A DNA stretch of 64,000 nt from Candidatus Moraniibacteriota bacterium. Its GTDB lineage: Bacteria > Patescibacteriota > Minisyncoccia > Moranbacterales > UBA1568. The notes under the pieces are model-generated. The model saw nothing but the letters and a program-made list of their open reading frames with translations, did not search any database and was not told the DNA's origin. The stretch lies in assembly GCA_030648835.1 (NCBI GenBank), contig JAUSGT010000002.1, positions 89,665-153,664 on the forward strand, written 5' to 3'. Positions 1-22,422 of the stretch are shown here, piece after piece (position 1 is the stretch's first letter; each line of letters begins with the position of its first letter). The translations under genes and the position numbers were made by a program.

Positions 1-312
1 AAAAAGAAGTATCAGACTTTGAGGCGGTAAGGGAGGAATCTGAGACGGAGATTTTGTAACTTTTTATAAAATGGATATTCAAGATCCCCTGAAAATTTTT
101 GTAATTTTTTTGAAAGTCGGTCTTAGTGGCCGACAGTTGAGTTGACGGTTATTTGATGTATTGGATGGCAAAGGTAGGAAGAACAAAAAGCAGCGCTATA
201 AAGCGTTTTTTGCTTATTTTTTCTGGAAAAAATAACAATTTGGCTGGCTTACTCAATATATTTTGGTACTTTGTTATTCTTAAGTGGAAGTTTTATTTTT
301 TAAAAAAGACAT

Positions 313-1164
313 ATGAAAAACACCACCAGATACAAGTTCCCATACTCAGACATTGAGTTGGCCGAGAAGATCAATAGCATATTGGAGGAATATGATGTTC
401 CTCTAACGTTGAGGCAGGTCTATTACCGGCTTGTGGCTCTTGGGCTGATGAATGCCCAGAAAGTGTACCAGAATCTCTCAGGGAAACTCTCGAGGCTTCG
501 AGAGCAGGGATTGGTTCTTTGGGAAAGGATTATTGACCTGAAGAGACAGCCTGAAAAGGAGCCATCGTGGACAAGTCCAGAGTCATTCTTTGAAACTGTC
601 AGCCAGTCGTACAAACGGGACTTACAGCAAGAACAGGCTAAGTATATTGAGGTTTGGTGCGAGAAAGCTGTCGCCATACGGCAGATCACTGATAAGTACG
701 ACGTGAGCCTACTGGCCGGAGGCGGCTATAGAAGCAGTTCAGCCCTCTACGAAGCCTCAAAACGCTTCAAGAATATTGGCAAGCCGATTGTCATACTATA
801 CCTAGGCGATTTTGATCCCTCTGGGTTGGATATTGAAAGAGACATAGAAACCCGTATGAGAGGAGTTTTTGACATCGAAGTAGATGTTCAAAGGGTCTTA
901 CTGGTTCTCCAGGACATAACTGACTACCAACTGTTGCCAAGCCCGGTAAAGCCTACGGATCCCAGGACAGCCGCGTATATAGCAAAATACGGCGTTACAG
1001 ATGTCTATGAGCTCGATGCCTTGCCGCCAAACGTTATAGCGGAGAAATTGGAAGAAGCTATTTGCAGAAATATGGACGTGGAGTTATACGAAACGCAATT
1101 GGCGAGACAGGAGCTGGACAATGCAGAAATCGACAAGTTCATAGAAAAAGGGAATATTTCTTAA
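313..1164 (+). CDS. Topo VI-A/Spo11-like 'Mini-A' protein (winged helix with putative catalytic Tyr + Toprim)
   Basis: 283-aa ORF. 'LRQVYYRLV' resembles the R-x-x-[FY]-Y catalytic-tyrosine motif of the Spo11/Topo VI-A 5Y-CAP domain. Downstream Toprim-like acidic motif 'LYLGDFDPSGLDIERD' (DxD). No fused or adjacent GHKL B-subunit. Confidence 0.55.
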   Translation: MKNTTRYKFPYSDIELAEKINSILEEYDVPLTLRQVYYRLVALGLMNAQKVYQNLSGKLSRLREQGLVLWERIIDLKRQPEKEPSWTSPESFFETVSQSYKRDLQQEQAKYIEVWCEKAVAIRQITDKYDVSLLAGGGYRSSSALYEASKRFKNIGKPIVILYLGDFDPSGLDIERDIETRMRGVFDIEVDVQRVLLVLQDITDYQLLPSPVKPTDPRTAAYIAKYGVTDVYELDALPPNVIAEKLEEAICRNMDVELYETQLARQELDNAEIDKFIEKGNIS

Positions 1165-1176
1165 AAAATCAATCTT

Positions 1177-1458
1177 ATGAAGCATTTTGAAATGTGTGAC
1201 GCGCCAATTTGTGCAGACAGAGAAGCGTACGAAAACAATCCCAACTGGCAGAAAACGGTGTCTTGGCATCCCGGTGAGGCGGTGTGCGGGATGAAGCCGT
1301 ATGCAAAATGGCAGAAACGACAAACAAAAATTAACCGTTGGCTGTTAGCTGGGAAGCTAAAATATCCCGAACTTTTCTTCACGGTGGAAACACTTTTACG
1401 AAAGAAATTGTTGTATCGAGGAATAAAGGGCGACAACCCGGATGCGGAGATAGGGTAA
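1177..1458 (+). CDS. small Cys-containing hypothetical protein
   Basis: 93-aa ORF 13 nt after the previous stop, same strand; several Cys/His (CDAPIC...C); no recognisable domain. Confidence 0.3.
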   Translation: MKHFEMCDAPICADREAYENNPNWQKTVSWHPGEAVCGMKPYAKWQKRQTKINRWLLAGKLKYPELFFTVETLLRKKLLYRGIKGDNPDAEIG

Positions 1459-1660
1459 TTTGAAGAAAAAGTGCCACAGATGGGGCTGTCACAGAAGATG
1501 TAATGAGTAAATGGTGCCAATCTATGCCAAGAAAATAAAAAGCCTCAAATAAGCCTTCGATAACTTTAGTAGGACTGAGCTATAGTGAAAGCATTCTGTT
1601 AAGAGTTTTTTTGGGGAAAATCCCGATTGGGAGACTTGATTATAGGAACACATAAAGTGA

Positions 1661-2488
1661 ATGTTAAAACGCACTGATACAAAAATAATTATCTCTGGCT
1701 CCATAGTTGAAGTCCATTCTTACGTGGGTGAGCCATTGTATTATGGCTTTACTGTTTTCCCCAATAGTAAAACAAGAAGAAAGATCGAGGTCATTGATGA
1801 AGAAAGCCTGCTCCGAAAATCAGAATCAAGGAAAAGATCAATGAGAAGAGCCGGGTCAAATATTAGAAAGCTTGTGAATTCCAATGCGTGGCGATGGAAA
1901 AATTCAATAGGGATACCATATGAACCAATATTTGTCACGCTTACATTTAAAGATGATGTTCGAGATGTAAGAAAAGCTAATGCAGAATTTACACATTTTA
2001 TACGTCGTTTGAACTATAAAGTCTCCGGCAAATCCAATAAGTTTATTTTTAAGTACATATCGGTAATTGAGTTTCAAGACCTCAACCGGGGTGGAGTAAT
2101 ACACTACCATACCGTCTTCTTTAATTTACCAACTGCTGTAGCAGATATTCTTTCACAGATTTGGGGGCATGGGTTTATTGATAAAAAGAAAATAGAAGAA
2201 ATTGACAATGTGGGTGCTTATATTTCCAAGAGCTTATCTTCAGCGCACGATGATAGCCGTTTGGATGGAAATAAGCATTATTTTTCAAGTAGTGGGTTGC
2301 TTCAGCCAATCGAAATAAGAGAACAGGGTAAAGCCCAGGCTATTAAAAAGCTTCTTTTAGGAGAAAATATTGCTAAAGTAGTAGATAATTCCGACAGATA
2401 TCAAGGAAGAGTGGAGCGTGTTTCCTACCAACTGAATAAAAGCGAGACATTATCTGATACTATCCCGGAAGTATATAACTTACCATGA
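1661..2488 (+). CDS. rolling-circle replication initiator (HUH endonuclease superfamily Rep)
   Basis: 275 aa; three Rep motifs in canonical order: motif I 'FVTLTF', motif II 'GGVIHYHTVFF' (H-u-H), motif III 'GAYISKS' (Y-x-x-K). Confidence 0.55.
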   Translation: MLKRTDTKIIISGSIVEVHSYVGEPLYYGFTVFPNSKTRRKIEVIDEESLLRKSESRKRSMRRAGSNIRKLVNSNAWRWKNSIGIPYEPIFVTLTFKDDVRDVRKANAEFTHFIRRLNYKVSGKSNKFIFKYISVIEFQDLNRGGVIHYHTVFFNLPTAVADILSQIWGHGFIDKKKIEEIDNVGAYISKSLSSAHDDSRLDGNKHYFSSSGLLQPIEIREQGKAQAIKKLLLGENIAKVVDNSDRYQGRVERVSYQLNKSETLSDTIPEVYNLP

Positions 2489-2510
2489 ACAATTTAATTT
2501 TTAGAAAATT

Positions 2511-3056
2511 ATGGGAAATAAATATCTAGTCGAAGAATGTTTCTTCTTAACGCCCAGAGATGTTGGGAGAAGGTTTGATCGTATTAGGAAGTTAGGAACC
2601 AATATTCTTGAAGGGCGGGATGATATTTCATACTGGTTTGATGATATGTCTGAGCCGACTTGTCTTTTTGTTAGCGTAGATGGTCACGAGCCACAGAAAT
2701 TTATTTGGGAGCCAGTTGAACTGACATTTGGTGAAGCAGCTTATTTTCATTGTGGATGCGGGTACAAAGCACGAAAGTTATACTTACTCCCAAGTGGTAA
2801 TGAATTCAAATGCCGAAAATGCCATAACTTACGTTACGCACTCTCAGTCCTGAATAGCAAATCTATTGCAGGCAGGGTCATCTATCGTGCGAACCGCCTC
2901 CATAAACTTGCAAACAGCCGAGCATGTATGGGTAGGATTTTTTATGATGGTAACTTTACAAAAAGGTTTGAGAGATTCCTTGGTCTTTGCGATAAAGCGG
3001 GTCTGGAGGACATAGTCAGGGGTGCAAACGCTTTAAAAGAGCTGGTTAGGGGGTAA
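2511..3056 (+). CDS. zinc-ribbon hypothetical protein
   Basis: 181 aa; 'CGCGYK...EFKCRKCHN' four-Cys ribbon; begins 23 nt after the Rep stop. Confidence 0.45.
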   Translation: MGNKYLVEECFFLTPRDVGRRFDRIRKLGTNILEGRDDISYWFDDMSEPTCLFVSVDGHEPQKFIWEPVELTFGEAAYFHCGCGYKARKLYLLPSGNEFKCRKCHNLRYALSVLNSKSIAGRVIYRANRLHKLANSRACMGRIFYDGNFTKRFERFLGLCDKAGLEDIVRGANALKELVRG

Positions 3057-3167
3057 GTATTTCAACGAAGTCAGAATATTTGCCTTCTCTATTTACAGAG
3101 GAAACGTCATAGCACAAAGTGTCTTGTAGGAGTAGTTTTATTTTAGTTGCTGCAGAAAAAGTTACTT

Positions 3168-3177
3168 TCTGTTATAA
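3168..3177 (+). promoter_or_regulatory. extended -10 promoter element (TGtTATAAT) upstream of MTase
   Basis: 'ctgTTATAAT' with TGn extension 9 nt upstream of ATG 3186; no good -35. Confidence 0.35.
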
Positions 3178-3185
3178 TACATCCT

Positions 3186-4220
3186 ATGGATTCAATATTG
3201 AGTACAATTGACCTCTTCGCTGGTATTGGCGGTATCCGCAAAGGCTTTGAAAGAGCTGGTTTTGAAACACTCTATGCGGCAGATATCGATGCGGGATGTA
3301 AGGTTACGTATGACTTAAACTATAAAAATACGCCACTCACTTTGCAGAGCGTGACGGATATTGTTCCGGAGACCCTTCCGAACTTTGGTGTATTGTTGGC
3401 TGGATTTCCCTGTCAATCCTTTTCTGTCGCTGGTGGCAAAGCAGGTTTTGCTGACAAAGGACGAGGGGATCTCTTTTTTGAAATAATGAAGGTGCTTGAA
3501 GTGAAAAAACCCGCTGCAGTATTTCTTGAGAATGTTAAACATTTAGCGAAACACGATCATGGTCGGACCTTCGTCATAATAAAGGAACTTCTTGAGCGCT
3601 GTGGCTACCATGTAAAATTTGCGATGATGAATAGTGCCGAATATGGCAATGTTCCACAAAATAGAGACCGCATATATATTGTGGGCTTTCGAGACATGAA
3701 TGTATCCAATGCATTTGAATTTCCATCAAAAAAGATTTTGGAGCATTCTATAACAGATTTGCTTGAGACTGATGTTCCAGAAAAATATTATTACAAAAAA
3801 GGTTGGCTTTATGACCGTATAAAAAGCTTGGGTATGAAGCGAGGGCTAATATATCAGTGGCGTAGAGTTTATCTGAGAGAAAATAAAAGTGGTGTTTGTT
3901 TCACCTTGACTGCAAACATGGGGATGGGTGGACACAACGTCCCACTTGTTCGAGATGCAAAAGGGTTGCGTCGCCTTACACCACGTGAGTGCGCTCATTT
4001 GCAAGGATTCCCTAAAGGTTTTAAATTGCCGACGTCTTTACCGGATTCTCGTTTATATAAACAGATTGGTAACTCTGTAACAATTTCTGTAGTGGAGCGT
4101 ATCGCTCGTAACATCCGTAAGGCATTGGAGACGCCTAAAAAATCATATCGAGTACGTGTTGAAAGGAGGGCATCCGTTGATCAACAGGTTACTAAATCAT
4201 TCGTTGAGCTGGTTACTTAG
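3186..4220 (+). CDS. DNA (cytosine-5)-methyltransferase
   Basis: Motif I 'DLFAGIGG', IV 'GFPCQSFSVAG', VI 'VFLENVKHL', VIII 'QNRDRIYIVG', X 'IGNSVTISV'. Start placed at ATG 3186 (MDSILSTIDLFAGIGG) because the longer ORF start at 3147 would include the promoter. Confidence 0.9.
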   Translation: MDSILSTIDLFAGIGGIRKGFERAGFETLYAADIDAGCKVTYDLNYKNTPLTLQSVTDIVPETLPNFGVLLAGFPCQSFSVAGGKAGFADKGRGDLFFEIMKVLEVKKPAAVFLENVKHLAKHDHGRTFVIIKELLERCGYHVKFAMMNSAEYGNVPQNRDRIYIVGFRDMNVSNAFEFPSKKILEHSITDLLETDVPEKYYYKKGWLYDRIKSLGMKRGLIYQWRRVYLRENKSGVCFTLTANMGMGGHNVPLVRDAKGLRRLTPRECAHLQGFPKGFKLPTSLPDSRLYKQIGNSVTISVVERIARNIRKALETPKKSYRVRVERRASVDQQVTKSFVELVT

Positions 4221-4286
4221 TTAAAATAGCGTAGCGCTCTATTACCTCTGATTCGGTGGTATTTTTTGTTTTTCAAAAAAGTAACT

Positions 4287-4321
4287 TGACAAAACGGTAG
4301 TAGGGGTATACTATTAGTAAT
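4287..4321 (+). promoter_or_regulatory. sigma70-like promoter for the GHKL operon
   Basis: 'TTGACAaaacggtagtaggggTATACT', -35/-10 with 15-16 nt spacer, ~10-40 nt upstream of the first ORF. Confidence 0.4.
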
Positions 4322-4327
4322 AGCGTT

Positions 4328-4579
4328 ATGCCCTTGCTAAGGGCGATATGTATAAAAATTATGAAGAACCAAAAACGTATTCGCTTTGAACGCCTAGCTG
4401 TATATCGTACTAACGAAGTCCTGAAGCGCCTTAAGGTGCTTGGAAACTGTGGTAATCGTAGTGCATACGAATACAGTGAAGAGGAAATAAATAAAATATT
4501 TGCTGAAATAGAACGGAATGTTAGAGATTCACGTGCGAAGTTCCATTTTCCGAAGGGTCGTAAAGAATTCCGTCTCTAA
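4328..4579 (+). CDS. small basic hypothetical protein (possible regulator); first gene of GHKL operon
   Basis: 83-aa ORF (alternative start MKNQK at 4361); stop is 2 nt before the next ATG. Confidence 0.4.
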   Translation: MPLLRAICIKIMKNQKRIRFERLAVYRTNEVLKRLKVLGNCGNRSAYEYSEEEINKIFAEIERNVRDSRAKFHFPKGRKEFRL

Positions 4580-4581
4580 AT

Positions 4582-6477
4582 ATGCTCAAAGCTCAAAAGA
4601 AAAAAAAGAGTGAAGTTGTATTAGGCTGGCACTTCCCAGCCCTTGATCATGCCGACACAGAGGGGCTAAATGATCCGCTTTTGGGATACTTTGGTGGCGA
4701 TTATAACCAATGTGTGGCAAGAGAAGTGATCCAGAACTCCATAGATGCACGGGACGACACGGAATGCCCAGTGTTTGTTAAATTTGAAAAATTAAAACTA
4801 CCCATAGCAGATGTCCCTGGTATTGCAGAATTGAAAGAGCATATAAAAATTTGTTTGGCTCAGGCCAAAAGCGAACACAACGACAAAGCGGAAAAGCACT
4901 ACAGGGATGCCCTAAAGATTGCCACGGCAACGTCCATTGATGTTCTCAGAGCTTCTGACTACAATACGTCAGGTTTGGACGGTGTCGACGACGATAAAAA
5001 AGGGAAATGGCACCGGCTTGTGAAGGCGGTTGGAGAGAATCAGCTTACAGGGGCGGGTGGTGGATCATACGGTATTGGAAAAGGAGCACCTTTTGTTGCT
5101 TCTATGATGAGAGCAGTCTATTACTCTACAAAAAACTCTTCTGGTGAGGTTATTTTTCAGGGAAAAGCACGGCTACTTAGCCATCAGTGGAAGGGTAGTG
5201 ATTATCGCGGAGTAGGGTCGTTTGGCATCGAGGGCTATAAGTCTGTAAGAGAGGAAGGTAAAATCCCAGAAATTTTTATACGAGACAAACAAGGAACGGA
5301 CATCAATATCATAGGGTACAATGTAACGCCGTCATGGAAGGACGAACTTGCAAAGTCAGTGCTGGATAATTTTTGGATGGCCATACATTCCAACGACCTG
5401 GAAGTTATCATAAGTGATGGGGCGGATGAAATCAGTATAAACCGAGCAACCCTACCAGAACTTTTAGAGAAACATAGCCGGGATGAGGGCCTCATATATT
5501 ACCGCACGGTTATCAATCCGACTCGTACGTTCAAGAAGCAACTTCCTTTGCTTGGAGCCTGCACTTTCTATGTGCGCATTGAGGAAAGATTTCCGAGGGA
5601 GACAATATATATGCGACGACCAAAAATGCGGGTGAGCAAATGGCGTTTTCCAAAGACCTTACATGAACCGCATGCCGGATTGTTCATTTGCGAGGATGTA
5701 GAGGGGAATAAACTACTACGAAACTTAGAGCCTCCTGAGCATGATGAATGGAAGGCTACTCTAGATCCTCTGCAGGGGAAAGAAATCATAGCAGCAGTAC
5801 GTTCATGGATTACGGGGAATTTGAAGGAGTTGGCGGCGGAGGAAAGCGACGACTCAGAAGAAGTCCCTGGATTGGAGAAGTTTCTGCCTTACGATGAAGA
5901 CTCTGAGAAGGAATCACTTGCCAACAAGAGCAGGAGCAAGCCGGCGGACTTCGCGGAATTAGAAGAAGGGCCGGTTGAAGTTGGAGCTGAACGTGAGGAA
6001 ACCGAGGACGAAGTTGAGGATCATGTAAGGAAACCTTCAAGCCTCACTCCATCGAGTGGCGATGATCCAAATTATCGTCATGGCAATGGGAGCAGGCGCC
6101 ACCGTAGAGGGGGAGGCGGAAACAACAACGTGGACCCTGATGGTGACGCCATTAAGCGCATTGATACGTCCGCAGTAAAATTCAGAATTATTCATACTGG
6201 GCGATCAGAGATGGGAAATGCTGAGTACTGTCTCGTTATTGAGCCTCTTGCCGATGTAGAAGGGGCTATAGATGTTGTAGCTCTTGGGAACGACTCTACA
6301 GTGTACCCGATTCCACTTGCATATGCCGAACCTTGGGATAAAGAATCGGGTTCCTTCAGTATCGAAAAATCTTATATCAATGGACTGAAGCTTAAGAAGG
6401 GGAAAGAACTACGCATCAAGATTGGTACAATGTCGAAGTCTAGGTATGCCCTTGGTATAGAAAATTATGAAAGCTAA
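4582..6477 (+). CDS. GHKL-superfamily (Bergerat-fold) ATPase with acidic disordered C-terminal region
   Basis: 631 aa. N-box 'REVIQNSIDA' (E-x3-N-x2-D). G2 box 'GGGSYGIGKGAPF' (Hsp90/MORC/TopoVI-B-like GxxGxG). Long D/E-rich low-complexity stretch before a C-terminal ~130-aa domain. Confidence 0.7.
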   Translation: MLKAQKKKKSEVVLGWHFPALDHADTEGLNDPLLGYFGGDYNQCVAREVIQNSIDARDDTECPVFVKFEKLKLPIADVPGIAELKEHIKICLAQAKSEHNDKAEKHYRDALKIATATSIDVLRASDYNTSGLDGVDDDKKGKWHRLVKAVGENQLTGAGGGSYGIGKGAPFVASMMRAVYYSTKNSSGEVIFQGKARLLSHQWKGSDYRGVGSFGIEGYKSVREEGKIPEIFIRDKQGTDINIIGYNVTPSWKDELAKSVLDNFWMAIHSNDLEVIISDGADEISINRATLPELLEKHSRDEGLIYYRTVINPTRTFKKQLPLLGACTFYVRIEERFPRETIYMRRPKMRVSKWRFPKTLHEPHAGLFICEDVEGNKLLRNLEPPEHDEWKATLDPLQGKEIIAAVRSWITGNLKELAAEESDDSEEVPGLEKFLPYDEDSEKESLANKSRSKPADFAELEEGPVEVGAEREETEDEVEDHVRKPSSLTPSSGDDPNYRHGNGSRRHRRGGGGNNNVDPDGDAIKRIDTSAVKFRIIHTGRSEMGNAEYCLVIEPLADVEGAIDVVALGNDSTVYPIPLAYAEPWDKESGSFSIEKSYINGLKLKKGKELRIKIGTMSKSRYALGIENYES

Positions 6478-7297
6478 AAATATATCATATCCATATCCCG
6501 TCCTTGGTAACGATGACGATGTAGAAGGCAAGTTCGATGCTTCTTTTAAGCATATGCTCAAAAGAGACAATATCATTCTCAAGTCTCGCTTTTCGCTGAA
6601 GAATAAAACGCTTGAAAGACTTATCAGGGAAAAGAAGGCTGTCTACACTGTAGAAGTAGAATGCCCGAGCACGTTTTATAGGAAGCTTTTTTCTACCATT
6701 GAAACGGAAGCAGATTTTGTTTTGTCTTCGACTGTGGTACGAGAGCATGTTTCCGTAGGCTTCTTTATCCGTGCGACAGAAACCTTAGCCGAATACGAGA
6801 TAACCGGGTGTCATGCTGATTATGAAGGCTTTAAATTCGATGTAGGGCCTGGGGATGTATTGGCGCTTGGTGGTTACACATCTTTCATTGCGGAAAAGGA
6901 TTTTGACCCGATGCAACCGGCTGTTTCGTCTCTTATTGCTATTAAACAGGGAAATAAGGATGTAGGGCCAATGGAAATCGACTATTCGCAAGACAAGATA
7001 TTCATCAAACTTTCCCGCAAAGATCATAAGAACTACTCGCAAATAAAAGGGCAAGTAACTATTGCTGGCGTACTTCATTCATCTATAGTGTTGCCGGTCC
7101 TGGCGGACGCCATCCAGCTTGTTTTGTCTGAAGACGAAGAAACGCAGGAGAGACATTGGTTTCGCCGGCTTGAAGTAATTTTGCGACATCAGGGTCTCGA
7201 GGGAGAGGATCCGCTAATTAGTGCCCAGAAAGTTTTGCACGGTCCAATCGAGCGTTGCTTGTCTGGGCTTGTGGAAACCGCTGAGGCAGATGAATAA
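6467..7297 (+). CDS. hypothetical protein (GHKL operon gene 3)
   Basis: 276-aa ORF overlapping the GHKL stop by 11 nt; no recognisable motif. Confidence 0.5.
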   Translation: MKAKNISYPYPVLGNDDDVEGKFDASFKHMLKRDNIILKSRFSLKNKTLERLIREKKAVYTVEVECPSTFYRKLFSTIETEADFVLSSTVVREHVSVGFFIRATETLAEYEITGCHADYEGFKFDVGPGDVLALGGYTSFIAEKDFDPMQPAVSSLIAIKQGNKDVGPMEIDYSQDKIFIKLSRKDHKNYSQIKGQVTIAGVLHSSIVLPVLADAIQLVLSEDEETQERHWFRRLEVILRHQGLEGEDPLISAQKVLHGPIERCLSGLVETAEADE

Positions 7298-7305
7298 AAA
7301 TTATT

Positions 7306-8109
7306 ATGAACCAAAACATTTTCAAGCGGATGTATGTAGCAGAACTCCGGGACAAAGTGCGTAGTGGCGAGTCACTGTGTGATTACCTCAAAAGGGAAGT
7401 CGAATATCCTACAGATGCAGTAATTGAATCTACAATTAAGATAGACTCTGAGAAACTCAAATTGAAGTATCGCGGTACGGGAGAATCAGCAAGCAATGAT
7501 CTAGAAAATGCTATTACTTTGTACGAGGCCTTTCCGGGGCTAACTGAAACGCAAGCTTCTGACTCGAGGCTTTGGACGTATCTTACTCATGTCACTCTAC
7601 GAGATTACGTTTTCGCTCGATGGCCACTTGAGGGTAGTTGCGAACAGATAAAGAATGATAGTAGGAAACAAGCAATTGTCGCTGATTTCATATTAAGTCA
7701 TTGGTTTGCTTCCGGTGGTAGTGATCGCCTACTTCGCCGCAATGCTGCCGCTCGCTTATGGTGGCCAGTACATCTTACGCACGCACCCTGGCTACGTGAA
7801 CCAGAATTCTTTGCAGACCTAGGAGCAAGTGACCCATACCGCTTTACGAAAATATTACTTTCCATGGAAAGCATATATGCGGAGGTGCTTGAGCGTGGAT
7901 TAGGTCGTGATAATCGTATACTCATAACCGTGTTGGAATTTCTTGAGGTAAACAAGGGTATCAAACGTGATCAAATTCGTAGTTTCATGAAAGAACTGAA
8001 CCTGTTTCTTTCCGTTAGAAACCTTTCCTTACTTTCGAGAAAGGGTATGAAAGAAGCAATTTTCAGTGTTGGCGGTGGAGCCATAGCTGAAATGGGACTT
8101 GATTTGTAG
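7306..8109 (+). CDS. hypothetical protein (GHKL operon gene 4)
   Basis: 267-aa ORF 8 nt after the previous stop; Trp-rich 'LWWPVHLTHAPW'; no recognisable domain. Confidence 0.5.
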   Translation: MNQNIFKRMYVAELRDKVRSGESLCDYLKREVEYPTDAVIESTIKIDSEKLKLKYRGTGESASNDLENAITLYEAFPGLTETQASDSRLWTYLTHVTLRDYVFARWPLEGSCEQIKNDSRKQAIVADFILSHWFASGGSDRLLRRNAAARLWWPVHLTHAPWLREPEFFADLGASDPYRFTKILLSMESIYAEVLERGLGRDNRILITVLEFLEVNKGIKRDQIRSFMKELNLFLSVRNLSLLSRKGMKEAIFSVGGGAIAEMGLDL

Positions 8110-8120
8110 GGGGGAGACCT

Positions 8121-8642
8121 ATGGATTTTATATCTATTTATGTATCAGTTTCAAAACAGATATTAAATGACTATCAGTGGCTGGTCGGCATATTTTTCAC
8201 GGCCGGACTGTCATTGTTGGTATATTTTAGACTTCTTAGAATAAATAACTTTCTTGCATATTCCCAAAAATATCACGAGAACCTCAAATCATTTTTATTT
8301 CTTGAGAAGATCAATTATAAAAATGGAGAAATGGTCTATAGGGATTCAGGAGAAGATGTGGAAGAGCAGGACGCCCTAAATTTAACAGTCCTATATAATT
8401 TATTGTCTGAAGTCGGCCTGCTTTATAGAAGAGGGTTAATTAATCGGGATCTTGTATACCAGCACTTTGGGAATGTAGTCTACTCACTTTATACGCAGCA
8501 CAGAGATATCATTAGCCATATTCAAAGCCATACAAAAACAGATAATATTGAATTTTTATTTGAAGCTTTTAGCAAGAGAGGTGTGCGGTGTGATCGGATG
8601 AAGAAGTTGAGAAATTTTTTCTTTGGGAGAAAATCCAAATAG
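8121..8642 (+). CDS. hypothetical membrane-anchored protein (GHKL operon gene 5)
   Basis: 173 aa; N-terminal hydrophobic helix 'WLVGIFFTAGLSLLVYF'; 11 nt after the previous stop. Confidence 0.45.
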   Translation: MDFISIYVSVSKQILNDYQWLVGIFFTAGLSLLVYFRLLRINNFLAYSQKYHENLKSFLFLEKINYKNGEMVYRDSGEDVEEQDALNLTVLYNLLSEVGLLYRRGLINRDLVYQHFGNVVYSLYTQHRDIISHIQSHTKTDNIEFLFEAFSKRGVRCDRMKKLRNFFFGRKSK

Positions 8643-8838
8643 CTCACTATTTGATGATGATACATATGCCGGATCATGAGAAAAGGGCGGAGAAGCTGAA
8701 AGTGACGCATAGTTGATAAGTAGGTGAAACTGTTATATCCAGTGACAATTTGCTAATATGTGAATAAGCGCAACAATTGAATAGGAAAGTAGCCTAAAGT
8801 TGCCGGAGTTTTCTCCGGTAACCATGGTGAAAAATAAG

Positions 8839-8883
8839 TCTCGTCAGAGTAAAAAAACCGATCATTAGGTTTTGCTCTGACGA
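8839..8883. repeat. perfect 10-bp inverted repeat hairpin (ctcgtcagag / ctctgacgag) in intergenic region
   Basis: Seen directly; ~25-nt loop; no T-tract; between the GHKL operon and the pAgo module. Confidence 0.3.
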
Positions 8884-8972
8884 GCCATATCTGGAAACGG
8901 ATGTGGAGAGTGCAAACTCTCACCTAGTGGTCGGCTTTTTGTATTTCAAGTGAGCAATTAATCAAAATCATT

Positions 8973-19695: not shown

Positions 19696-22422
19696 ATGGA
19701 AAGGATTTCTGAAAATTTCTACAATAAGGACTCATCGGAAGTTATTAAGTATTTCAATACGAGCGAGCACGGATTTGCTTCATCCGAAGCGAAGCGGAGA
19801 CTTACGGAATATGGGTCCAATGAATTGCCGGAAGCAAAGCGTGACAGCGTCTACGCCATCTTTTTTCGCCAGTTTAAGAGCCCGCTCATCTTCATTCTGC
19901 TTTCTGCGGGAATCATCATATTTTTCACAGGAGAAATTGTCGATGCCTCCGTTGTTTTCTTCGTCCTCATTTTTAACGCCATTGTCGGTACCGTTCAGGA
20001 AGGAAGAGCACAGAATACTTTTCTGGCGCTAAAGAAATTCATCAAAGGAAGAGCTTTCGTCTTGCGCGATCATGAAGAGACAATCGTTTCAGACAAGTAC
20101 ATTGTCCCGGGTGATATTATCGTCCTGCGGGAGGGGGAGAAGGTTCCGGCTGACGCCCGTGTTATCGCTTCCAATGCTCTCAAGATCAATGAATCTGCCT
20201 TGACAGGAGAGTCATTACCGAAACACAAAGATACGCGTCCGCTCACAGGAGAAAAAATCGTTCTTTCGGATCAAGGAAATATGGTTTTCAAAGGGACGGT
20301 GATCGTTTCCGGAAATGGCAAAGCTATCGTTGTTGCTACCGGCATTGAAACGTTTCTCGGAACGATAGCCAAGGAAACACTCGGGATTGATGCGGATTTT
20401 CCGCTGAAAAACGATATTCGAAAACTTTCCCGGTTCATCATTTCGTTTGTTCTCTCCATCGCGTTTATACTGCTTTCCCTTGGTATTTTGAATGGGCATC
20501 CATTGCGGGATATCTTCAAGACTATTGTTGCCATATCGGTTTCTATCATTCCAGAAGGCTTGCCGATTGTGATAACGCTCGTGCTCGCCAGCGGAGTATG
20601 GCGAATGAGCAAGAAGAATGTTCTCGTAAAGAAATTACAAGCCATTGAAGTTCTGGGAGAAACGAAAATTCTTGCCGTTGATAAAACAGGTACGGTGACA
20701 AAAAACGAGCTCTCGATAGAGAAAGTTTTTATAGATAATAATTTGTTTGACATTGGAGGAGGTGGATACTTGCCAGAAGGAGAGGTGAGTCTTCATGGGG
20801 ATATTGTTGATCCATTAAATCATCCGAATCTGCTTTTAGCGGGGAAGATAGCGGCTCTCAATAGTAGTGCCAGCCTCATCTTTCATAAAGGATCAAGGCA
20901 GTGGAAAGTGGCAGGTGATCCGACCGAAGGGGCAATGATGGTTTTTTCGAAGAAAATTGGTTTTAACCATGAAGATTTGCTTTCCGAGATACCGATGATC
21001 GATGAGCTTCCTTTTGATTATGAACGGAAGTTTCATGTGTCGCTCCATCGTACGAAACCGGAGAATTTTCTCGCGATAACCGGTTCCCCGGAAATGATTC
21101 TCTCTTTGTCTAGAAGAGAGCCGGGAATAGACGGCTTGAAAAAAATTACTGATGAAAGGAAAAAAGAGTTGGAGTTGGTGTTTGATACCTTGTCGCAGGA
21201 TGGGTTGCGAGTCATTGGGTTTGCCTACGGATTCACGACAGATGAAAATATTGATGAAGAGCGCTCAATGAAAAACCTGGTCTTCGGAGGGTTTTTCGGT
21301 ATCAAAGATACGTTGCGGACAGAGGTGAGGGATGCTGTACAACAAGTGGAGGCATCAGGCATAAAAGTGGTGATGATCACTGGGGACCATGCTGTGACAG
21401 CACGGGCGATTGCAACGGAATCTGGAATTTACAATGGCGGGGACATGGTACTCGATGGTGAAGAGATAGATCGATTAAGCGATGGAGAACTGGCAGAAAA
21501 AATACCGGATGTGAGTGTTTTTTCTCGGGTTACACCGAAGCATAAACTGAGAATTATTCAGGCATACCGGTCGAGCGGGTTGGTCGTCGCGATGACCGGA
21601 GACGGAGTGAATGATGCTCTCTCCCTTTCAGCAGCAGACATCGGTATTGGGATGGGAAAAATTGGGACGGATGTCGCCAAAGAAGCTTCTGATATTATCT
21701 TGCTCGACGATAACTTCGGCAGCATCGTCCATGGCGTTGAAGAAGGAAGAAATATCTTTGCGACTATCAAGAAGGTCATTCTCTATCTTTTTTCGACCAG
21801 TTTAGGTGAAGTGTTCGTTTTGCTCGGAGCTTTGCTTATTGGTTTTCCTCTCCCAATTCTCGCGGCTCAAATCTTGTGGTTGAATCTGGTAACGGACGGA
21901 TTCCTCGATGTGGCTCTCGCAATGGAGCCAAAAGAGCCAAAGAAGGTTTTTTTTGCGAAGACGGCACTAGTCGATACATTGATGATGAAGCGGATGTTTC
22001 TCATGGCGCTCCCGATGGCGATTGGGACACTCATTCTTTTCAGCCAGTACTATCAAGATGATATTGCGAAAGCGTGGACGATCTCACTGACGGTACTCGC
22101 TGTATTCCAGTGGTTCAATGCCTGGAATTGCCGGTCGGCAGAGAAATCGGTTTTTTCTATGAACCCGTTTTCCAATAAGTTTCTTTTGGGGGCGACTGGC
22201 ATTATTATTATGTTGCAAGTCACTGCCGTATATAGCCCGCTGTTTCAGAAAGTGCTCCGAACAGTACCGCTTGATCGAGATGACTGGCTTATGATTATTC
22301 CTGTAGCGTTTTCAATCGTTGTAGTGGAGGAAGTCAGGAAATACTTTTATAGGGTGTCTTTGCGCCGTATAGAAAGCGAGAAAGCGTCTTCTGCAGGTCT
22401 ACCCTATGGTAAGTCTGAGTAA
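19696..22422 (+). CDS. P-type cation-transporting ATPase (type II, Ca2+/Mg2+-type)
   Basis: 908 aa; 'TGES' actuator motif, 'DKTGTVT' phosphorylation site, 'MTGDGVNDALSLS' hinge, ~10 TM helices. Confidence 0.9.
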   Translation: MERISENFYNKDSSEVIKYFNTSEHGFASSEAKRRLTEYGSNELPEAKRDSVYAIFFRQFKSPLIFILLSAGIIIFFTGEIVDASVVFFVLIFNAIVGTVQEGRAQNTFLALKKFIKGRAFVLRDHEETIVSDKYIVPGDIIVLREGEKVPADARVIASNALKINESALTGESLPKHKDTRPLTGEKIVLSDQGNMVFKGTVIVSGNGKAIVVATGIETFLGTIAKETLGIDADFPLKNDIRKLSRFIISFVLSIAFILLSLGILNGHPLRDIFKTIVAISVSIIPEGLPIVITLVLASGVWRMSKKNVLVKKLQAIEVLGETKILAVDKTGTVTKNELSIEKVFIDNNLFDIGGGGYLPEGEVSLHGDIVDPLNHPNLLLAGKIAALNSSASLIFHKGSRQWKVAGDPTEGAMMVFSKKIGFNHEDLLSEIPMIDELPFDYERKFHVSLHRTKPENFLAITGSPEMILSLSRREPGIDGLKKITDERKKELELVFDTLSQDGLRVIGFAYGFTTDENIDEERSMKNLVFGGFFGIKDTLRTEVRDAVQQVEASGIKVVMITGDHAVTARAIATESGIYNGGDMVLDGEEIDRLSDGELAEKIPDVSVFSRVTPKHKLRIIQAYRSSGLVVAMTGDGVNDALSLSAADIGIGMGKIGTDVAKEASDIILLDDNFGSIVHGVEEGRNIFATIKKVILYLFSTSLGEVFVLLGALLIGFPLPILAAQILWLNLVTDGFLDVALAMEPKEPKKVFFAKTALVDTLMMKRMFLMALPMAIGTLILFSQYYQDDIAKAWTISLTVLAVFQWFNAWNCRSAEKSVFSMNPFSNKFLLGATGIIIMLQVTAVYSPLFQKVLRTVPLDRDDWLMIIPVAFSIVVVEEVRKYFYRVSLRRIESEKASSAGLPYGKSE

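What the first reader, a model, noticed from the sequence alone, without database searches (positions are those of the whole stretch)
313..1164. Mini-A-type Topo VI-A/Spo11-like protein with no B subunit, in a mobile-element context
A 283-aa ORF combines an R-x-x-Y-Y putative catalytic-Tyr winged helix with a DxD Toprim motif. No GHKL B subunit is adjacent; the GHKL gene 3.4 kb away is in a different operon. To my knowledge, small standalone Topo VI-A homologs ('Mini-A') have been noted on plasmids and integrated elements of bacteria and archaea, with unknown function. Here it sits next to an HUH Rep, which fits that MGE association.
Basis: partly seen in the sequence, partly recalled or inferred. 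Interest (0 to 1): 0.6.

Follow-up and report, generated by a model that had tools for sequence, protein, structure and literature searches.

The report
Mini-A topoisomerase-like gene, integrated element
The 283-residue gene is a real, intact member of the already described 'Mini-A' family (small stand-alone relatives of the DNA-cutting subunit of topoisomerase VI carried by phages and integrated elements), here in a roughly 18 kb element in a Candidatus Moranbacteria genome; what the family does is still unknown, and this copy is a typical member.

Summary
The ORF at 313..1164 (+) is real. It is 100% identical to a 'hypothetical protein' of a Candidatus Moranbacteria MAG.

It meets every sequence feature that defines the Mini-A subfamily of type IIB topoisomerase A subunits (Takahashi et al. 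2020):
- about 300 aa;
- R34-Q-V-Y-Y38;
- Toprim E117 and D166-F-D-P-S-G171;
- a C-terminal box Y232-ELDAL (family signature xWELDAL);
- no B subunit.

These residues are invariant or nearly so in 47 diverse homologues. It matches phrog_6247 'DNA topoisomerase' over its full length (E 4e-56). A confident AlphaFold model (pLDDT 91.6) has Topo VI-A structures as its best solved-structure matches.

The family is large: about 14,000 clusters at 50% identity, 78 isolated phage records and at least 574 genome loci.

The GHKL-like gene 3.4 kb downstream is a GHKL ATPase by fold. It belongs to a separate cassette (Dcm, an 83-aa protein, PDC-M33A/B/C) that occurs elsewhere without Mini-A.

The gene lies in an integrated element with a large serine integrase, an HUH Rep, defence cargo and a phage-type head-maturation protease. 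Related Patescibacteria elements keep Mini-A beside the integrase but carry different replication genes, or none that were recognised, and no Rep relative was found in any other fetched locus.

This is a new member of a known kind, with function still untested and moderate-to-low interest.

The parts
313..1164 (+). Mini-A gene (283 aa): truncated 5Y-CAP/winged-helix domain (about residues 1-100) plus a Toprim domain (about 105-210) plus a C-terminal box and helices
   Evidence: ORF. phrog_6247 'DNA topoisomerase' E 3.9e-56, residues 8-280. AF2 pLDDT 91.6. Foldseek top hits are Topo VI-A 1d3y and 2zbk_A. 100% identical to Q7S04_01415.
412..426 (+). R34-Q-V-Y-Y38: RxxY/FY motif with the putative catalytic tyrosine Y38
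   Evidence: R34, Q35 and Y38 are invariant in 47 diverse homologues. A relaxed R-x-x-hydrophobic-Y pattern is present in 145 of 148 cluster representatives. It aligns to TLREAYY of M. jannaschii Topo VI-A, but that stretch of the alignment is sub-threshold. Coordinates checked.
661..663 (+). E117, the Toprim acidic residue after the first Toprim strand (W-C-E-K)
   Evidence: E113, W115, E117 and K118 are invariant. Strand E111-116 in the model.
808..825 (+). D166-F-D168-P-S-G171: Toprim DxDxxG metal-binding motif
   Evidence: D166, D168, P169 and G171 are invariant. Present in 146 of 148 representatives. Aligns to DGDPYG of 1d3y_A.
1006..1023 (+). Y232-E-L-D-A-L237: the box Takahashi et al. 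call the T2BI-box (Mini-A signature xWELDAL, here with Y for W)
   Evidence: D235 and L237 invariant; E233 and A236 at 90% or more. WELDAL, WEVDAL, VELDAL and YEVDAL variants occur in 141 of 148 representatives. Signature defined in PMC7671362.
1177..1458 (+). 93-aa protein with three invariant cysteines, 12 nt downstream. It is a frequent but not obligatory neighbour of Mini-A in the Patescibacteria clade.
   Evidence: Homologues are adjacent to Mini-A in L002/L012, L006-8, L004/5 (upstream there), L096 and L103-105, L107. It also occurs without Mini-A in L100, L102 and L101.
1661..2488 (+). HUH rolling-circle Rep (sequence shows FVTLTF, HYH and GAYISK motifs)
   Evidence: PF23343 E 1.7e-16. 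phrog_3584 and phrog_3419. No tblastn match in any other locus held at that point.
2511..3056 (+). 181-aa Cys-rich protein shared with sister Patescibacteria elements
   Evidence: Cluster 9 in L001, L006, L012 and L013. 35-41% identity by tblastn, also in L096.
3147..8109 (+). Independent defence-type cassette: Dcm C5-methylase (3147-4220), 83-aa protein (4328-4579), PDC-M33A GHKL ATPase (4582-6477), PDC-M33B (6467-7297), PDC-M33C/DUF6339 (7306-8109). Cargo of the element, not a Mini-A partner.
   Evidence: PADLOC PDC-M33A E 1.2e-120, B 2.2e-63, C 5.2e-34. Dcm PF00145. The same five genes occur in L097/98 at 60-73% identity, and A-B-C plus Dcm plus Vsr in L099, both without Mini-A. The model's best PDB matches are GRP94, SMCHD1, GyrB ATPase and MORC4.
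13334..14185 (+). S49/ClpP-like peptidase of the phage head-maturation protease type, shared with sister elements
   Evidence: PF01343 E 1.5e-29. phrog_53 'head maturation protease' E 3.7e-40; the L006 counterpart scores 4e-42.

Best explanation
The gene encodes a Mini-A protein. This is a stand-alone, shortened homologue of the A (DNA-cleaving) subunit of type IIB topoisomerases, carried by a roughly 18 kb integrated element (serine integrase, HUH Rep, methylase/defence cargo, phage-type protease) in a Candidatus Moranbacteria genome.

Shown here:
- family membership;
- the CAP + Toprim fold;
- invariance of R34, Y38, E117, D166, D168 and the ELDAL box;
- absence of any conserved GHKL partner;
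- location in the early/replication/lysogeny regions of phages and integrated elements.

Inferred, by analogy with Topo VI-A/Spo11: the protein acts as a homodimer. Y38 of one protomer attacks DNA, assisted by Mg2+ held by E117/D166/D168, and forms a 5'-phosphotyrosyl intermediate that can be resealed. This needs no ATP, since there is no ATPase gate. Its substrate is most likely the element's own episomal DNA after excision or during replication (nicking/relaxation, unlinking or end processing). It is unlikely to be the sole replication initiator, because it co-occurs with unrelated replication modules.
For: Identity and size.

Family: phrog_6247 full-length, E 3.9e-56. 78 phage records carry homologues at 30-37% identity, several annotated 'DNA topoisomerase'.

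Motifs: all features listed in PMC7671362 are present and conserved.

Fold: pLDDT 91.6. Topo VI-A 1d3y/2zbk_A are the best PDB matches over the full length, followed by small Toprim proteins. The profile-to-PDB sequence search hits only 1d3y_A, aligned at the DxD motif.

No partner:
- Clustering of ORFs within 6 kb in 81 loci gives no cluster present in more than 22 loci; the top clusters are Tyr integrases (22), Ser recombinases (11), primase-helicases (9), methylases (8) and XRE repressors (7).
- Immediate neighbours are heterogeneous by Pfam, with no GHKL family among the 25 most frequent families listed for each side.
- A Bergerat-motif screen of 1,115 long ORF segments in 83 loci finds only the window's PDC-M33A and one ORF in L051; the window's PDC-M33A had no BLAST relative near any other Mini-A gene (singleton cluster), so the two are evidently unrelated.

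Context:
- The integrase is 1.3 kb upstream.
- In seven sister Patescibacteria loci Mini-A sits directly next to, or up to three called genes from, an integrase at the element edge. The replication genes differ: HUH Rep here, Prim-Pol in L004/5, none recognised elsewhere.
- In Listeria phage LWP01 it overlaps the excisionase gene, upstream of the DNA polymerase.
- GC is 41.2% in the element against 46.7% in the rest of the window.
Against: No Mini-A has been characterised biochemically in the literature I could search; reviews from 2021-2024 and a 2026 preprint still call the function unknown or hypothetical.

Dimerisation, cleavage chemistry and substrate are all inferred.

Pfam Topo VI-A/Spo11 models do not match at E<=0.1. 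Global TM-scores to 1d3y are low (0.35, rmsd about 17 A), presumably because the domains are oriented differently.

The element's right border and its att sites were not found, and no terminase or capsid gene was recognised. 'Prophage' versus 'integrative plasmid-like element' therefore stays open.
Confidence: 0.65

Rival explanations
1. Mini-A is the element's replication initiator. It nicks or cleaves the origin, stays covalently attached through Y38 and primes rolling-circle-like replication, as proposed for skuldviruses of Asgard archaea.
For: Medvedeva et al. (bioRxiv 10.1101/2021.07.29.453957) and a 2026 preprint put forward this idea for viruses with no other replication gene. In sister elements L002/L012, L006 and L096, no replication protein other than Mini-A was recognised between the integrase and the structural-type genes.
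Against: This element has its own HUH rolling-circle Rep 0.5 kb downstream. Other Mini-A loci carry Prim-Pol/D5-type primase-helicases, Toprim primases, DNA polymerase or RecD-like helicases. WyrdV4 also has both an HUH Rep and Mini-A. A protein that co-occurs with many complete replication modules is unlikely to be the initiator in all of them.
Confidence: 0.2
2. Mini-A is a hydrolytic Toprim nuclease, like JetD/MksG of Wadjet or OLD-family enzymes. The element would use it against host DNA, competing elements or host defences, not as a cleave-and-reseal enzyme.
For: There are weak sub-threshold matches to DUF2399 (E 0.012, 15.8 bits against a cutoff of 23.4) and to JetD models (E 0.035-0.06). 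The element carries defence cargo. There is no ATPase subunit to drive strand passage.
Against: The R-x-x-Y-Y tyrosine and arginine are invariant across the family. This is expected for covalent catalysis and would be unnecessary for a hydrolase. No JetABC/SMC-like genes lie nearby. The best fold and sequence matches are Topo VI-A, not JetD.
Confidence: 0.1
3. Mini-A pairs in trans with the GHKL ATPase 3.4 kb downstream (PDC-M33A) to form a split Topo VI-like enzyme.
For: PDC-M33A has Bergerat motifs (E48xxxN52xxD55 and G160-G-S-x-G-I-G-K167, both conserved). Its GHKL + transducer-like fold matches GRP94, SMCHD1, GyrB and MORC4. It is on the same strand of the same element.
Against: PDC-M33A is a singleton among 81 Mini-A neighbourhoods. 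It travels as a conserved Dcm-83aa-A-B-C cassette in genomes with no Mini-A nearby. Mini-A lacks the N-terminal CAP segment that binds the B subunit (Tyr at residue 38, against 103 in M. jannaschii Top6A by my own knowledge of that numbering; PMC7671362). Top6B is not among the six matches at E<=0.001 for the PDC-M33A model.
Confidence: 0.02

Closest known systems
Mini-A subfamily of type IIB topoisomerase A subunits (Takahashi et al. 2020, NAR Genom Bioinform, PMC7671362; phrog_6247)
   Same: Length about 300 aa. Truncated 5Y-CAP plus Toprim. RxxY/FY, E, DxDxxG and a C-terminal xWELDAL-type box. No B subunit. Carried by phages or integrated elements. 30-37% identity to copies in Listeria, Flavobacterium, Xylella, Pseudomonas and Roseobacter phages.
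   Different: The box reads YELDAL instead of WELDAL in this Patescibacteria clade. The host phylum (Patescibacteria/CPR) was not mentioned among Mini-A hosts in the passages of the paper I read. The element has an HUH Rep and no recognisable capsid or terminase genes, so a viral nature is not shown.
Topoisomerase VI subunit A / Spo11 (PDB 1d3y, 2zbk)
   Same: Same two-domain fold. Same catalytic constellation (Arg + Tyr in the CAP, Glu + DxD in the Toprim). Best solved-structure matches.
   Different: About 100 residues shorter. Lacks the N-terminal CAP part that binds Top6B. No Top6B gene. Pfam Topo VI-A/Spo11 models do not match. Only about 16% identity in the structural alignment.
Topoisomerase VIII (plasmid-borne fused B-A type IIB enzymes)
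   Same: Confined to mobile elements. Shares the truncated CAP and the Toprim domain.
   Different: Topo VIII has an N-terminal GHKL/transducer moiety and an RVELNAM box. Neither is present here.
JetD / MksG nuclease subunit of Wadjet (DUF2399 Toprim)
   Same: Toprim domain distantly similar to Topo VI-A; weak sub-threshold profile hits.
   Different: To my knowledge JetD works with JetABC and lacks the catalytic tyrosine. Here the tyrosine is invariant and there are no SMC-like neighbours.

Membership tests
Mini-A (type IIB topoisomerase A-like, stand-alone) | [quoted passage not shown] | tested here: met
   283 aa. Putative catalytic Tyr at residue 38. The model shows a three-helix CAP remnant followed by a Toprim domain. 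Criterion from PMC7671362.
Mini-A (type IIB topoisomerase A-like, stand-alone) | RxxY/FY motif with conserved Arg and catalytic Tyr | tested here: met
   R34-Q-V-Y-Y38. R34, Q35 and Y38 are invariant in 47 homologues. A relaxed version of the motif is present in 145 of 148 diverse representatives.
Mini-A (type IIB topoisomerase A-like, stand-alone) | Toprim metal ligands: E followed by DxDxxG | tested here: met
   E117 and D166-F-D-P-S-G171, all invariant. Present in 146 of 148 representatives.
Mini-A (type IIB topoisomerase A-like, stand-alone) | C-terminal T2BI-box with the Mini-A signature xWELDAL (against RVELNAM in Topo VIII) | tested here: met
   V-Y232-E-L-D-A-L237, a conservative W-to-Y change shared by the Patescibacteria clade. 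E233, D235, A236 and L237 are conserved. WELDAL is the commonest form family-wide.
Mini-A (type IIB topoisomerase A-like, stand-alone) | No Bergerat-fold (GHKL) B subunit encoded with it | tested here: met
   No conserved neighbour cluster in 81 loci. The motif screen finds GHKL-like ORFs in 2 of 83 loci; the window's PDC-M33A had no BLAST relative near any other Mini-A gene, so the two are evidently unrelated. The window's GHKL gene belongs to the Dcm/PDC-M33 cassette, which is found elsewhere without Mini-A.
Mini-A (type IIB topoisomerase A-like, stand-alone) | Encoded by a virus or integrated provirus | tested here: inconclusive
   An integrated element is supported: serine integrase phrog_95 (E 6e-41), lower GC, and a phage-type head-maturation protease hit. 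No terminase, portal or capsid gene was recognised in the element. Homologues do lie in bona fide phages.
Mini-A (type IIB topoisomerase A-like, stand-alone) | Significant sequence similarity to recognised members | tested here: met
   phrog_6247, E 3.9e-56, residues 8-280 of 283. tblastn finds 78 phage records, including Listeria, Pseudomonas and Salmonella phages, the genera named in the paper.
Mini-A (type IIB topoisomerase A-like, stand-alone) | Mg2+-dependent DNA cleavage through a phosphotyrosyl intermediate | not testable with these tools
   Needs biochemistry. No published assay for any Mini-A was found.
Topoisomerase VI-A / Spo11 proper | Match to the curated Topo VI-A/Spo11 Pfam models, and the full 5Y-CAP with its B-binding N-terminal part | tested here: not met
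   No Topo VI-A/Spo11 Pfam family at E<=0.1. The profile matches 1d3y_A only at E 0.38. The N-terminal segment is absent.
Topoisomerase VI-A / Spo11 proper | Adjacent Top6B gene (GHKL-H2TH-transducer) | tested here: not met
   The adjacent genes are a 93-aa Cys protein and an HUH Rep.
Topoisomerase VI-A / Spo11 proper | CAP + Toprim fold | tested here: met
   Foldseek 1d3y_B E 4.9e-5, prob 1.00, 314 aligned columns; 2zbk_A E 5.7e-3.
Topoisomerase VIII | Fused or split GHKL/transducer moiety and an RVELNAM box | tested here: not met
   No N-terminal ATPase region (283 aa in total). The box is YELDAL.
JetD / MksG (Wadjet nuclease) | DUF2399/DUF3322 architecture above threshold, with JetABC neighbours | tested here: not met
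   DUF2399 scores 15.8 bits against a cutoff of 23.4. JetD models score E 0.035-0.06 over about 25 residues. No SMC-like neighbours.

The most novel reading that the evidence does not exclude
In a clade of small integrated elements of Patescibacteria, Mini-A is the conserved core DNA enzyme. It is often paired with an adjacent 76-93 aa three-cysteine protein. It sits beside the integrase whatever replication module is present. It would be a stand-alone, ATP-independent type IIB cleave-and-reseal enzyme that processes the excised circle, either by initiating or terminating its replication or by unlinking it. That would give the Mini-A family its first defined role and define a new element family in the CPR.
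Probability: 0.12. Interest if true: 0.6.

Novelty: new member of a known kind. Interest (0 to 1): 0.3.

Why it matters
Mini-A is a very large family (about 14,000 clusters at 50% identity) of topoisomerase-like proteins in phages and integrated elements of bacteria and archaea. It is uncharacterised, and it bears on how type IIB topoisomerases and Spo11 originated. This copy does not change that picture.

It adds three things:
- a well-conserved Patescibacteria clade;
- comparative evidence that Mini-A has no conserved GHKL partner, and keeps company with integrases and varied replication or partition modules;
- a case, like the archaeal virus WyrdV4, where it coexists with an HUH Rep, which argues against Mini-A being a universal replication initiator.

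The practical value is in annotation: 'hypothetical protein' should read 'Mini-A / Topo VI-A-like protein'.

Tried and rejected
- Single-sequence phmmer against PDB gave only noise.
- NCBIfam has no model for the protein.
- Promoter and terminator scans were not above shuffled expectation, so operon boundaries could not be set.
- The repeat search gave no convincing att repeats, only short chance-level pairs. The right border of the element is therefore only bracketed, between about 15.0 and 16.4 kb, by gene content and GC.
- The window's own genome is not a GTDB species representative, so more than 3.1 kb of upstream sequence could not be fetched.
- The supplementary tables of the Mini-A paper are not held, so I could not check accession by accession.
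- I considered the 93-aa three-cysteine protein as an obligate partner and rejected this. It is adjacent to Mini-A in about nine loci but also occurs without it in L100, L102 and L101.
- I considered the HUH Rep as a conserved partner and rejected this, because no relative was found in any other fetched locus.
- I considered PDC-M33A as a 'Mini-B' and rejected this.
- The literature search for the LOOT RNA returned only an author's surname.
Full report
**1. Observation**

The window has an ATG-initiated ORF at 313..1164 on the + strand, encoding 283 aa. R34-Q-V-Y-Y38 is encoded at nt 412-426, E117 at 661-663, D166-F-D-P-S-G171 at 808-825 and Y232-E-L-D-A-L237 at 1006-1023.

The protein is 100% identical to 'hypothetical protein Q7S04_01415' of a Candidatus Moranbacteria MAG, on a 635,596-bp contig. 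It has 1,109 homologues at E<=1e-3 in the word-indexed search, the closest (66-79% identity) from other Patescibacteria. A profile of 47 diverse homologues finds 14,181 cluster representatives at E<=1e-3, 9,594 at <=1e-10 and 3,917 at <=1e-30 among 1.84 billion. The ORF is therefore a real, conserved gene.

**2. What it is**

Family libraries:
- PHROGs gives a full-length match to phrog_6247 'DNA topoisomerase' (E 3.9e-56, residues 8-280).
- Pfam gives only a sub-threshold DUF2399 hit, the Toprim part of JetD-like proteins.
- NCBIfam gives nothing.
- PADLOC gives only faint JetD hits.

In an alignment of 47 homologues down to 36% identity, the invariant columns include R34, Q35, Y38, E113, W115, E117, K118, D166, D168, P169, G171, D235 and L237. 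Among 148 further representatives, each at most 50% identical to the others, a relaxed R-x-x-hydrophobic-Y pattern is present in 145, DxDxxG in 146 and an E-[LV]-D-A-L type box in 141. WELDAL is the commonest form of that box.

An AlphaFold2 model built on the alignment is confident (mean pLDDT 91.6, pTM 0.83). It shows an N-terminal helical domain carrying Y38 and then a Toprim alpha/beta domain, with E117 after the first Toprim strand and the DxD after a later one.

Foldseek against the PDB puts the Topo VI A subunit of M. jannaschii first (1d3y_B E 4.9e-5 and 1d3y_A 1.1e-4, probability 1.00, 311-314 aligned columns). The A chain of the intact Topo VI (2zbk_A) comes next, followed by small Toprim proteins. 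Global TM-scores are low (0.35), presumably because the two domains are oriented differently. The family profile's only hit among PDB sequences is again 1d3y_A. That hit is aligned at the DxD motif, with a sub-threshold stretch placing TLRQ-YY on TLREAYY.

**3. Comparison with the literature**

Takahashi et al. 2020 (PMC7671362, read) defined 'Mini-A' by these features:
- about 300-residue stand-alone homologues of the type IIB A subunit;
- no N-terminal, B-binding part of the 5Y-CAP;
- RxxY/FY, E and DxDxxG retained;
- a subfamily-specific C-terminal box, xWELDAL;
- no Bergerat-fold partner;
- encoded by viruses and proviruses of bacteria and archaea, including phages of Listeria, Pseudomonas and Salmonella.

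The window protein meets each sequence criterion, with YELDAL for WELDAL. It is 30-37% identical over at least 86% of its length to genes in 78 isolated-phage records, several annotated 'DNA topoisomerase'. These include Listeria LWP01, Flavobacterium FPSV, Xylella Salvo/Sano, Pseudomonas JG054 and Roseobacter RDJL Phi 1.

It is therefore a member of Mini-A. It is not a canonical Topo VI-A/Spo11, not a Topo VIII and not a JetD (see the membership table).

**4. The 'no B subunit' claim and the GHKL gene**

The 631-aa product of 4582..6477 matches PADLOC model PDC-M33A (E 1.2e-120). The next two genes match PDC-M33B and PDC-M33C/DUF6339.

The protein has conserved Bergerat-type motifs: E48xxxN52xxD55 and G160-G-S-x-G-I-G-K167. 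Its model's best PDB matches are GRP94/Hsp90, the SMCHD1 ATPase module, the GyrB ATPase region and MORC4.

It is still not a Mini-A partner, for three reasons:
- Dcm, the 83-aa protein, A, B and C recur as a five-gene cassette at 60-73% amino-acid identity in another Patescibacteria genome (L097/98). A-B-C plus Dcm plus Vsr recur in a Ferruginibacter genome (L099). Neither region has Mini-A.
- In 81 Mini-A neighbourhoods (within 6 kb), PDC-M33A is a singleton and no neighbour cluster occurs in more than 22 loci.
- A Bergerat-motif screen of 1,115 long ORF segments in 83 loci finds only this gene and one ORF in L051. Because the window's PDC-M33A had no BLAST relative near any other Mini-A gene, the two are evidently unrelated.

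Pfam scans of the immediately upstream (84) and downstream (81) ORFs are heterogeneous. They include integrases, AbrB/MazE-like proteins, actin-like ParM, ParB, primases and helicases. No GHKL family is among the 25 most frequent families listed for either side.

**5. Mobile-element context**

A Logan contig extends 3.1 kb upstream of the window. From left to right it carries:
- the 3' end of a P-type cation ATPase gene;
- a 580-aa large serine recombinase on the minus strand (PF00239; phrog_95 'integrase', E 6e-41);
- three small minus-strand genes, one of them SymE/AbrB-like;
- the Mini-A gene.

Downstream, all on the plus strand, come:
- a 93-aa three-cysteine protein;
- an HUH Rep;
- a 181-aa Cys-rich protein;
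- the Dcm/PDC-M33 cassette;
- a DUF4760 protein;
- two unknown proteins;
- a trypsin-like protease;
- an S49 peptidase matching phage head-maturation proteases (phrog_53, E 3.7e-40);
- small ORFs up to about 15.0 kb.

From 16.4 kb on, the genes look chromosomal: S9 and M23 peptidases, a Band 7 protein and a full P-type ATPase. The ATPase is 68% identical, over its C-terminal 81 residues, to the partial ATPase gene on the left flank. GC is 41.2% for 1-15,030 and 46.7% for 16,400-64,000.

I could not identify att sites. No terminase or capsid gene was recognised. The element is clearly integrated and mobile in type, but its viral nature is unproven.

**6. Sister elements**

Seven Patescibacteria loci with 70-79% identical Mini-A genes place the gene directly next to, or up to three called genes from, a serine or tyrosine integrase. 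This is at the element's edge, next to housekeeping genes (ychF, secA, prfB-like). Several of them (L002/L012, L006, L013, L096) share the 181-aa Cys-rich protein, and L006 and L096 also an S49 peptidase.

The replication genes differ: HUH Rep only here, Prim-Pol plus an 850-aa protein in L004/5, and none recognised in the others.

The 93-aa Cys protein is adjacent to Mini-A in about nine loci but also occurs without it. It is a frequent neighbour, not an obligate partner.

More distant homologues lie in bona fide phage contigs (terminase, packaging genes) and in phage early or replication regions. In Listeria LWP01 the gene overlaps the excisionase gene upstream of the DNA polymerase. In Xylella Salvo it ends the early operon.

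**7. How it most likely works**

Shown: fold, catalytic-residue conservation, lack of an ATPase partner, and location in the lysogeny/replication modules of mobile elements.

Inferred from Topo VI-A/Spo11 chemistry (established knowledge): a homodimer in which Y38 attacks the DNA backbone, with Mg2+ bound by E117/D166/D168, giving a resealable 5'-phosphotyrosyl link without ATP.

Because Mini-A coexists with unrelated, complete replication modules, I consider a universal initiator role less likely than an accessory DNA-processing role on the element's episomal form (nicking/relaxation, unlinking or end processing). The replication modules in question are the HUH Rep here and in the archaeal virus WyrdV4, and primase-helicases, polymerases and ParM/ParB partition genes elsewhere. 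The initiator hypothesis stays alive for elements with no other replication gene. A JetD-like hydrolytic nuclease role is disfavoured by the invariant Arg/Tyr.

No biochemical data exist in the searchable literature.

**8. Verdict**

The gene is a new, typical member of a known family of unknown function, in a phylum that the passages I read of the describing paper did not mention.

Nothing about this copy is surprising to a specialist, and it does not by itself make the open question of Mini-A function more testable. Interest is 0.3.

The most novel reading not excluded is that Mini-A, perhaps with the small Cys protein, is the core circle-processing enzyme of a new family of Patescibacteria integrated elements. 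I put that at about 0.12.

Noticed in passing
window 3147-8109: A five-gene cassette: Dcm C5-methylase, an 83-aa protein, then PDC-M33A (GHKL ATPase), PDC-M33B and PDC-M33C (DUF6339). It is conserved as a unit in another Patescibacteria genome (L097/98, 60-73% aa identity), and as A-B-C + Dcm + Vsr in Ferruginibacter (L099). The PDC-M33A model matches Hsp90/GRP94, SMCHD1, GyrB ATPase and MORC4. It looks like a methylase-linked, restriction-like candidate defence system whose link to Dcm may be worth describing.
   Followed up: partly
window 8791-8921 (+): Rfam LOOT RNA (RF03000) match at 82 bits (gathering score 46.4, E 6e-14). It lies in the 330-nt gap between the DUF4760 gene and the next gene of the element. 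I do not know its function.
   Followed up: no
window 1177-1458 (+): A 93-aa protein with three invariant cysteines (C7, C12, C37) and a conserved W-x-P-G-E-x-V-C ... K-P-[YF]-x-K-[FW]-Q-K motif. It is adjacent to Mini-A in about nine Patescibacteria loci but also occurs without Mini-A (L100, L101, L102). No family match.
   Followed up: partly
window 2511-3056 (+): A 181-aa Cys-rich protein (C-x-C ... C-x-x-C) shared at 35-41% identity by the sister integrated elements (L002/L012, L006, L013, L096). No Pfam or PHROG match.
   Followed up: partly
L001 2-286 (upstream of the window) and window 19696-22422: Two paralogous P-type cation ATPase genes flank the island. The C-terminal 81 residues are 68% identical. 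The element may have inserted next to, or between, tandem paralogues.
   Followed up: partly
L002 9537-11964; L096 10037-12638; L013 11159-13889: In three different Patescibacteria species, the related element ends with a serine recombinase gene whose 3' end overlaps the start of ychF. This suggests a shared integration site at the 5' end of ychF.
   Followed up: no
window 15030-16020: About 1 kb with no ORF of 110 aa or more in the ORF listing, between the last element-like small ORF and the first chromosomal-looking genes. It probably contains the right junction of the element. No Rfam family matched above threshold.
   Followed up: no
proteins P0146, P0161, P0212 and others: Some Mini-A homologues are 450-660 aa long, and their match to the profile is split into two stretches. 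This would fit inteins or domain insertions/fusions in the family.
   Followed up: no
L001 2592-2771 (-); L002 7397-7639 and C-terminus of 6703-7377; L006 7393-7635 and C-terminus of 6797-7375: A short acidic motif (roughly Q-x-x-x-L-x-x-L-I-x-x-x-I-x-D-x-x-E-R-E-x-x-L) recurs in several small proteins and at the C-termini of about 200-aa proteins of the sister elements. Function unknown.
   Followed up: no
window 11658-14185: A 559-aa protein with a trypsin-like domain is immediately followed by, and overlaps by 4 nt, the S49 head-maturation-type peptidase. It is an unusual pair of proteases in an element with no recognisable capsid gene.
   Followed up: no
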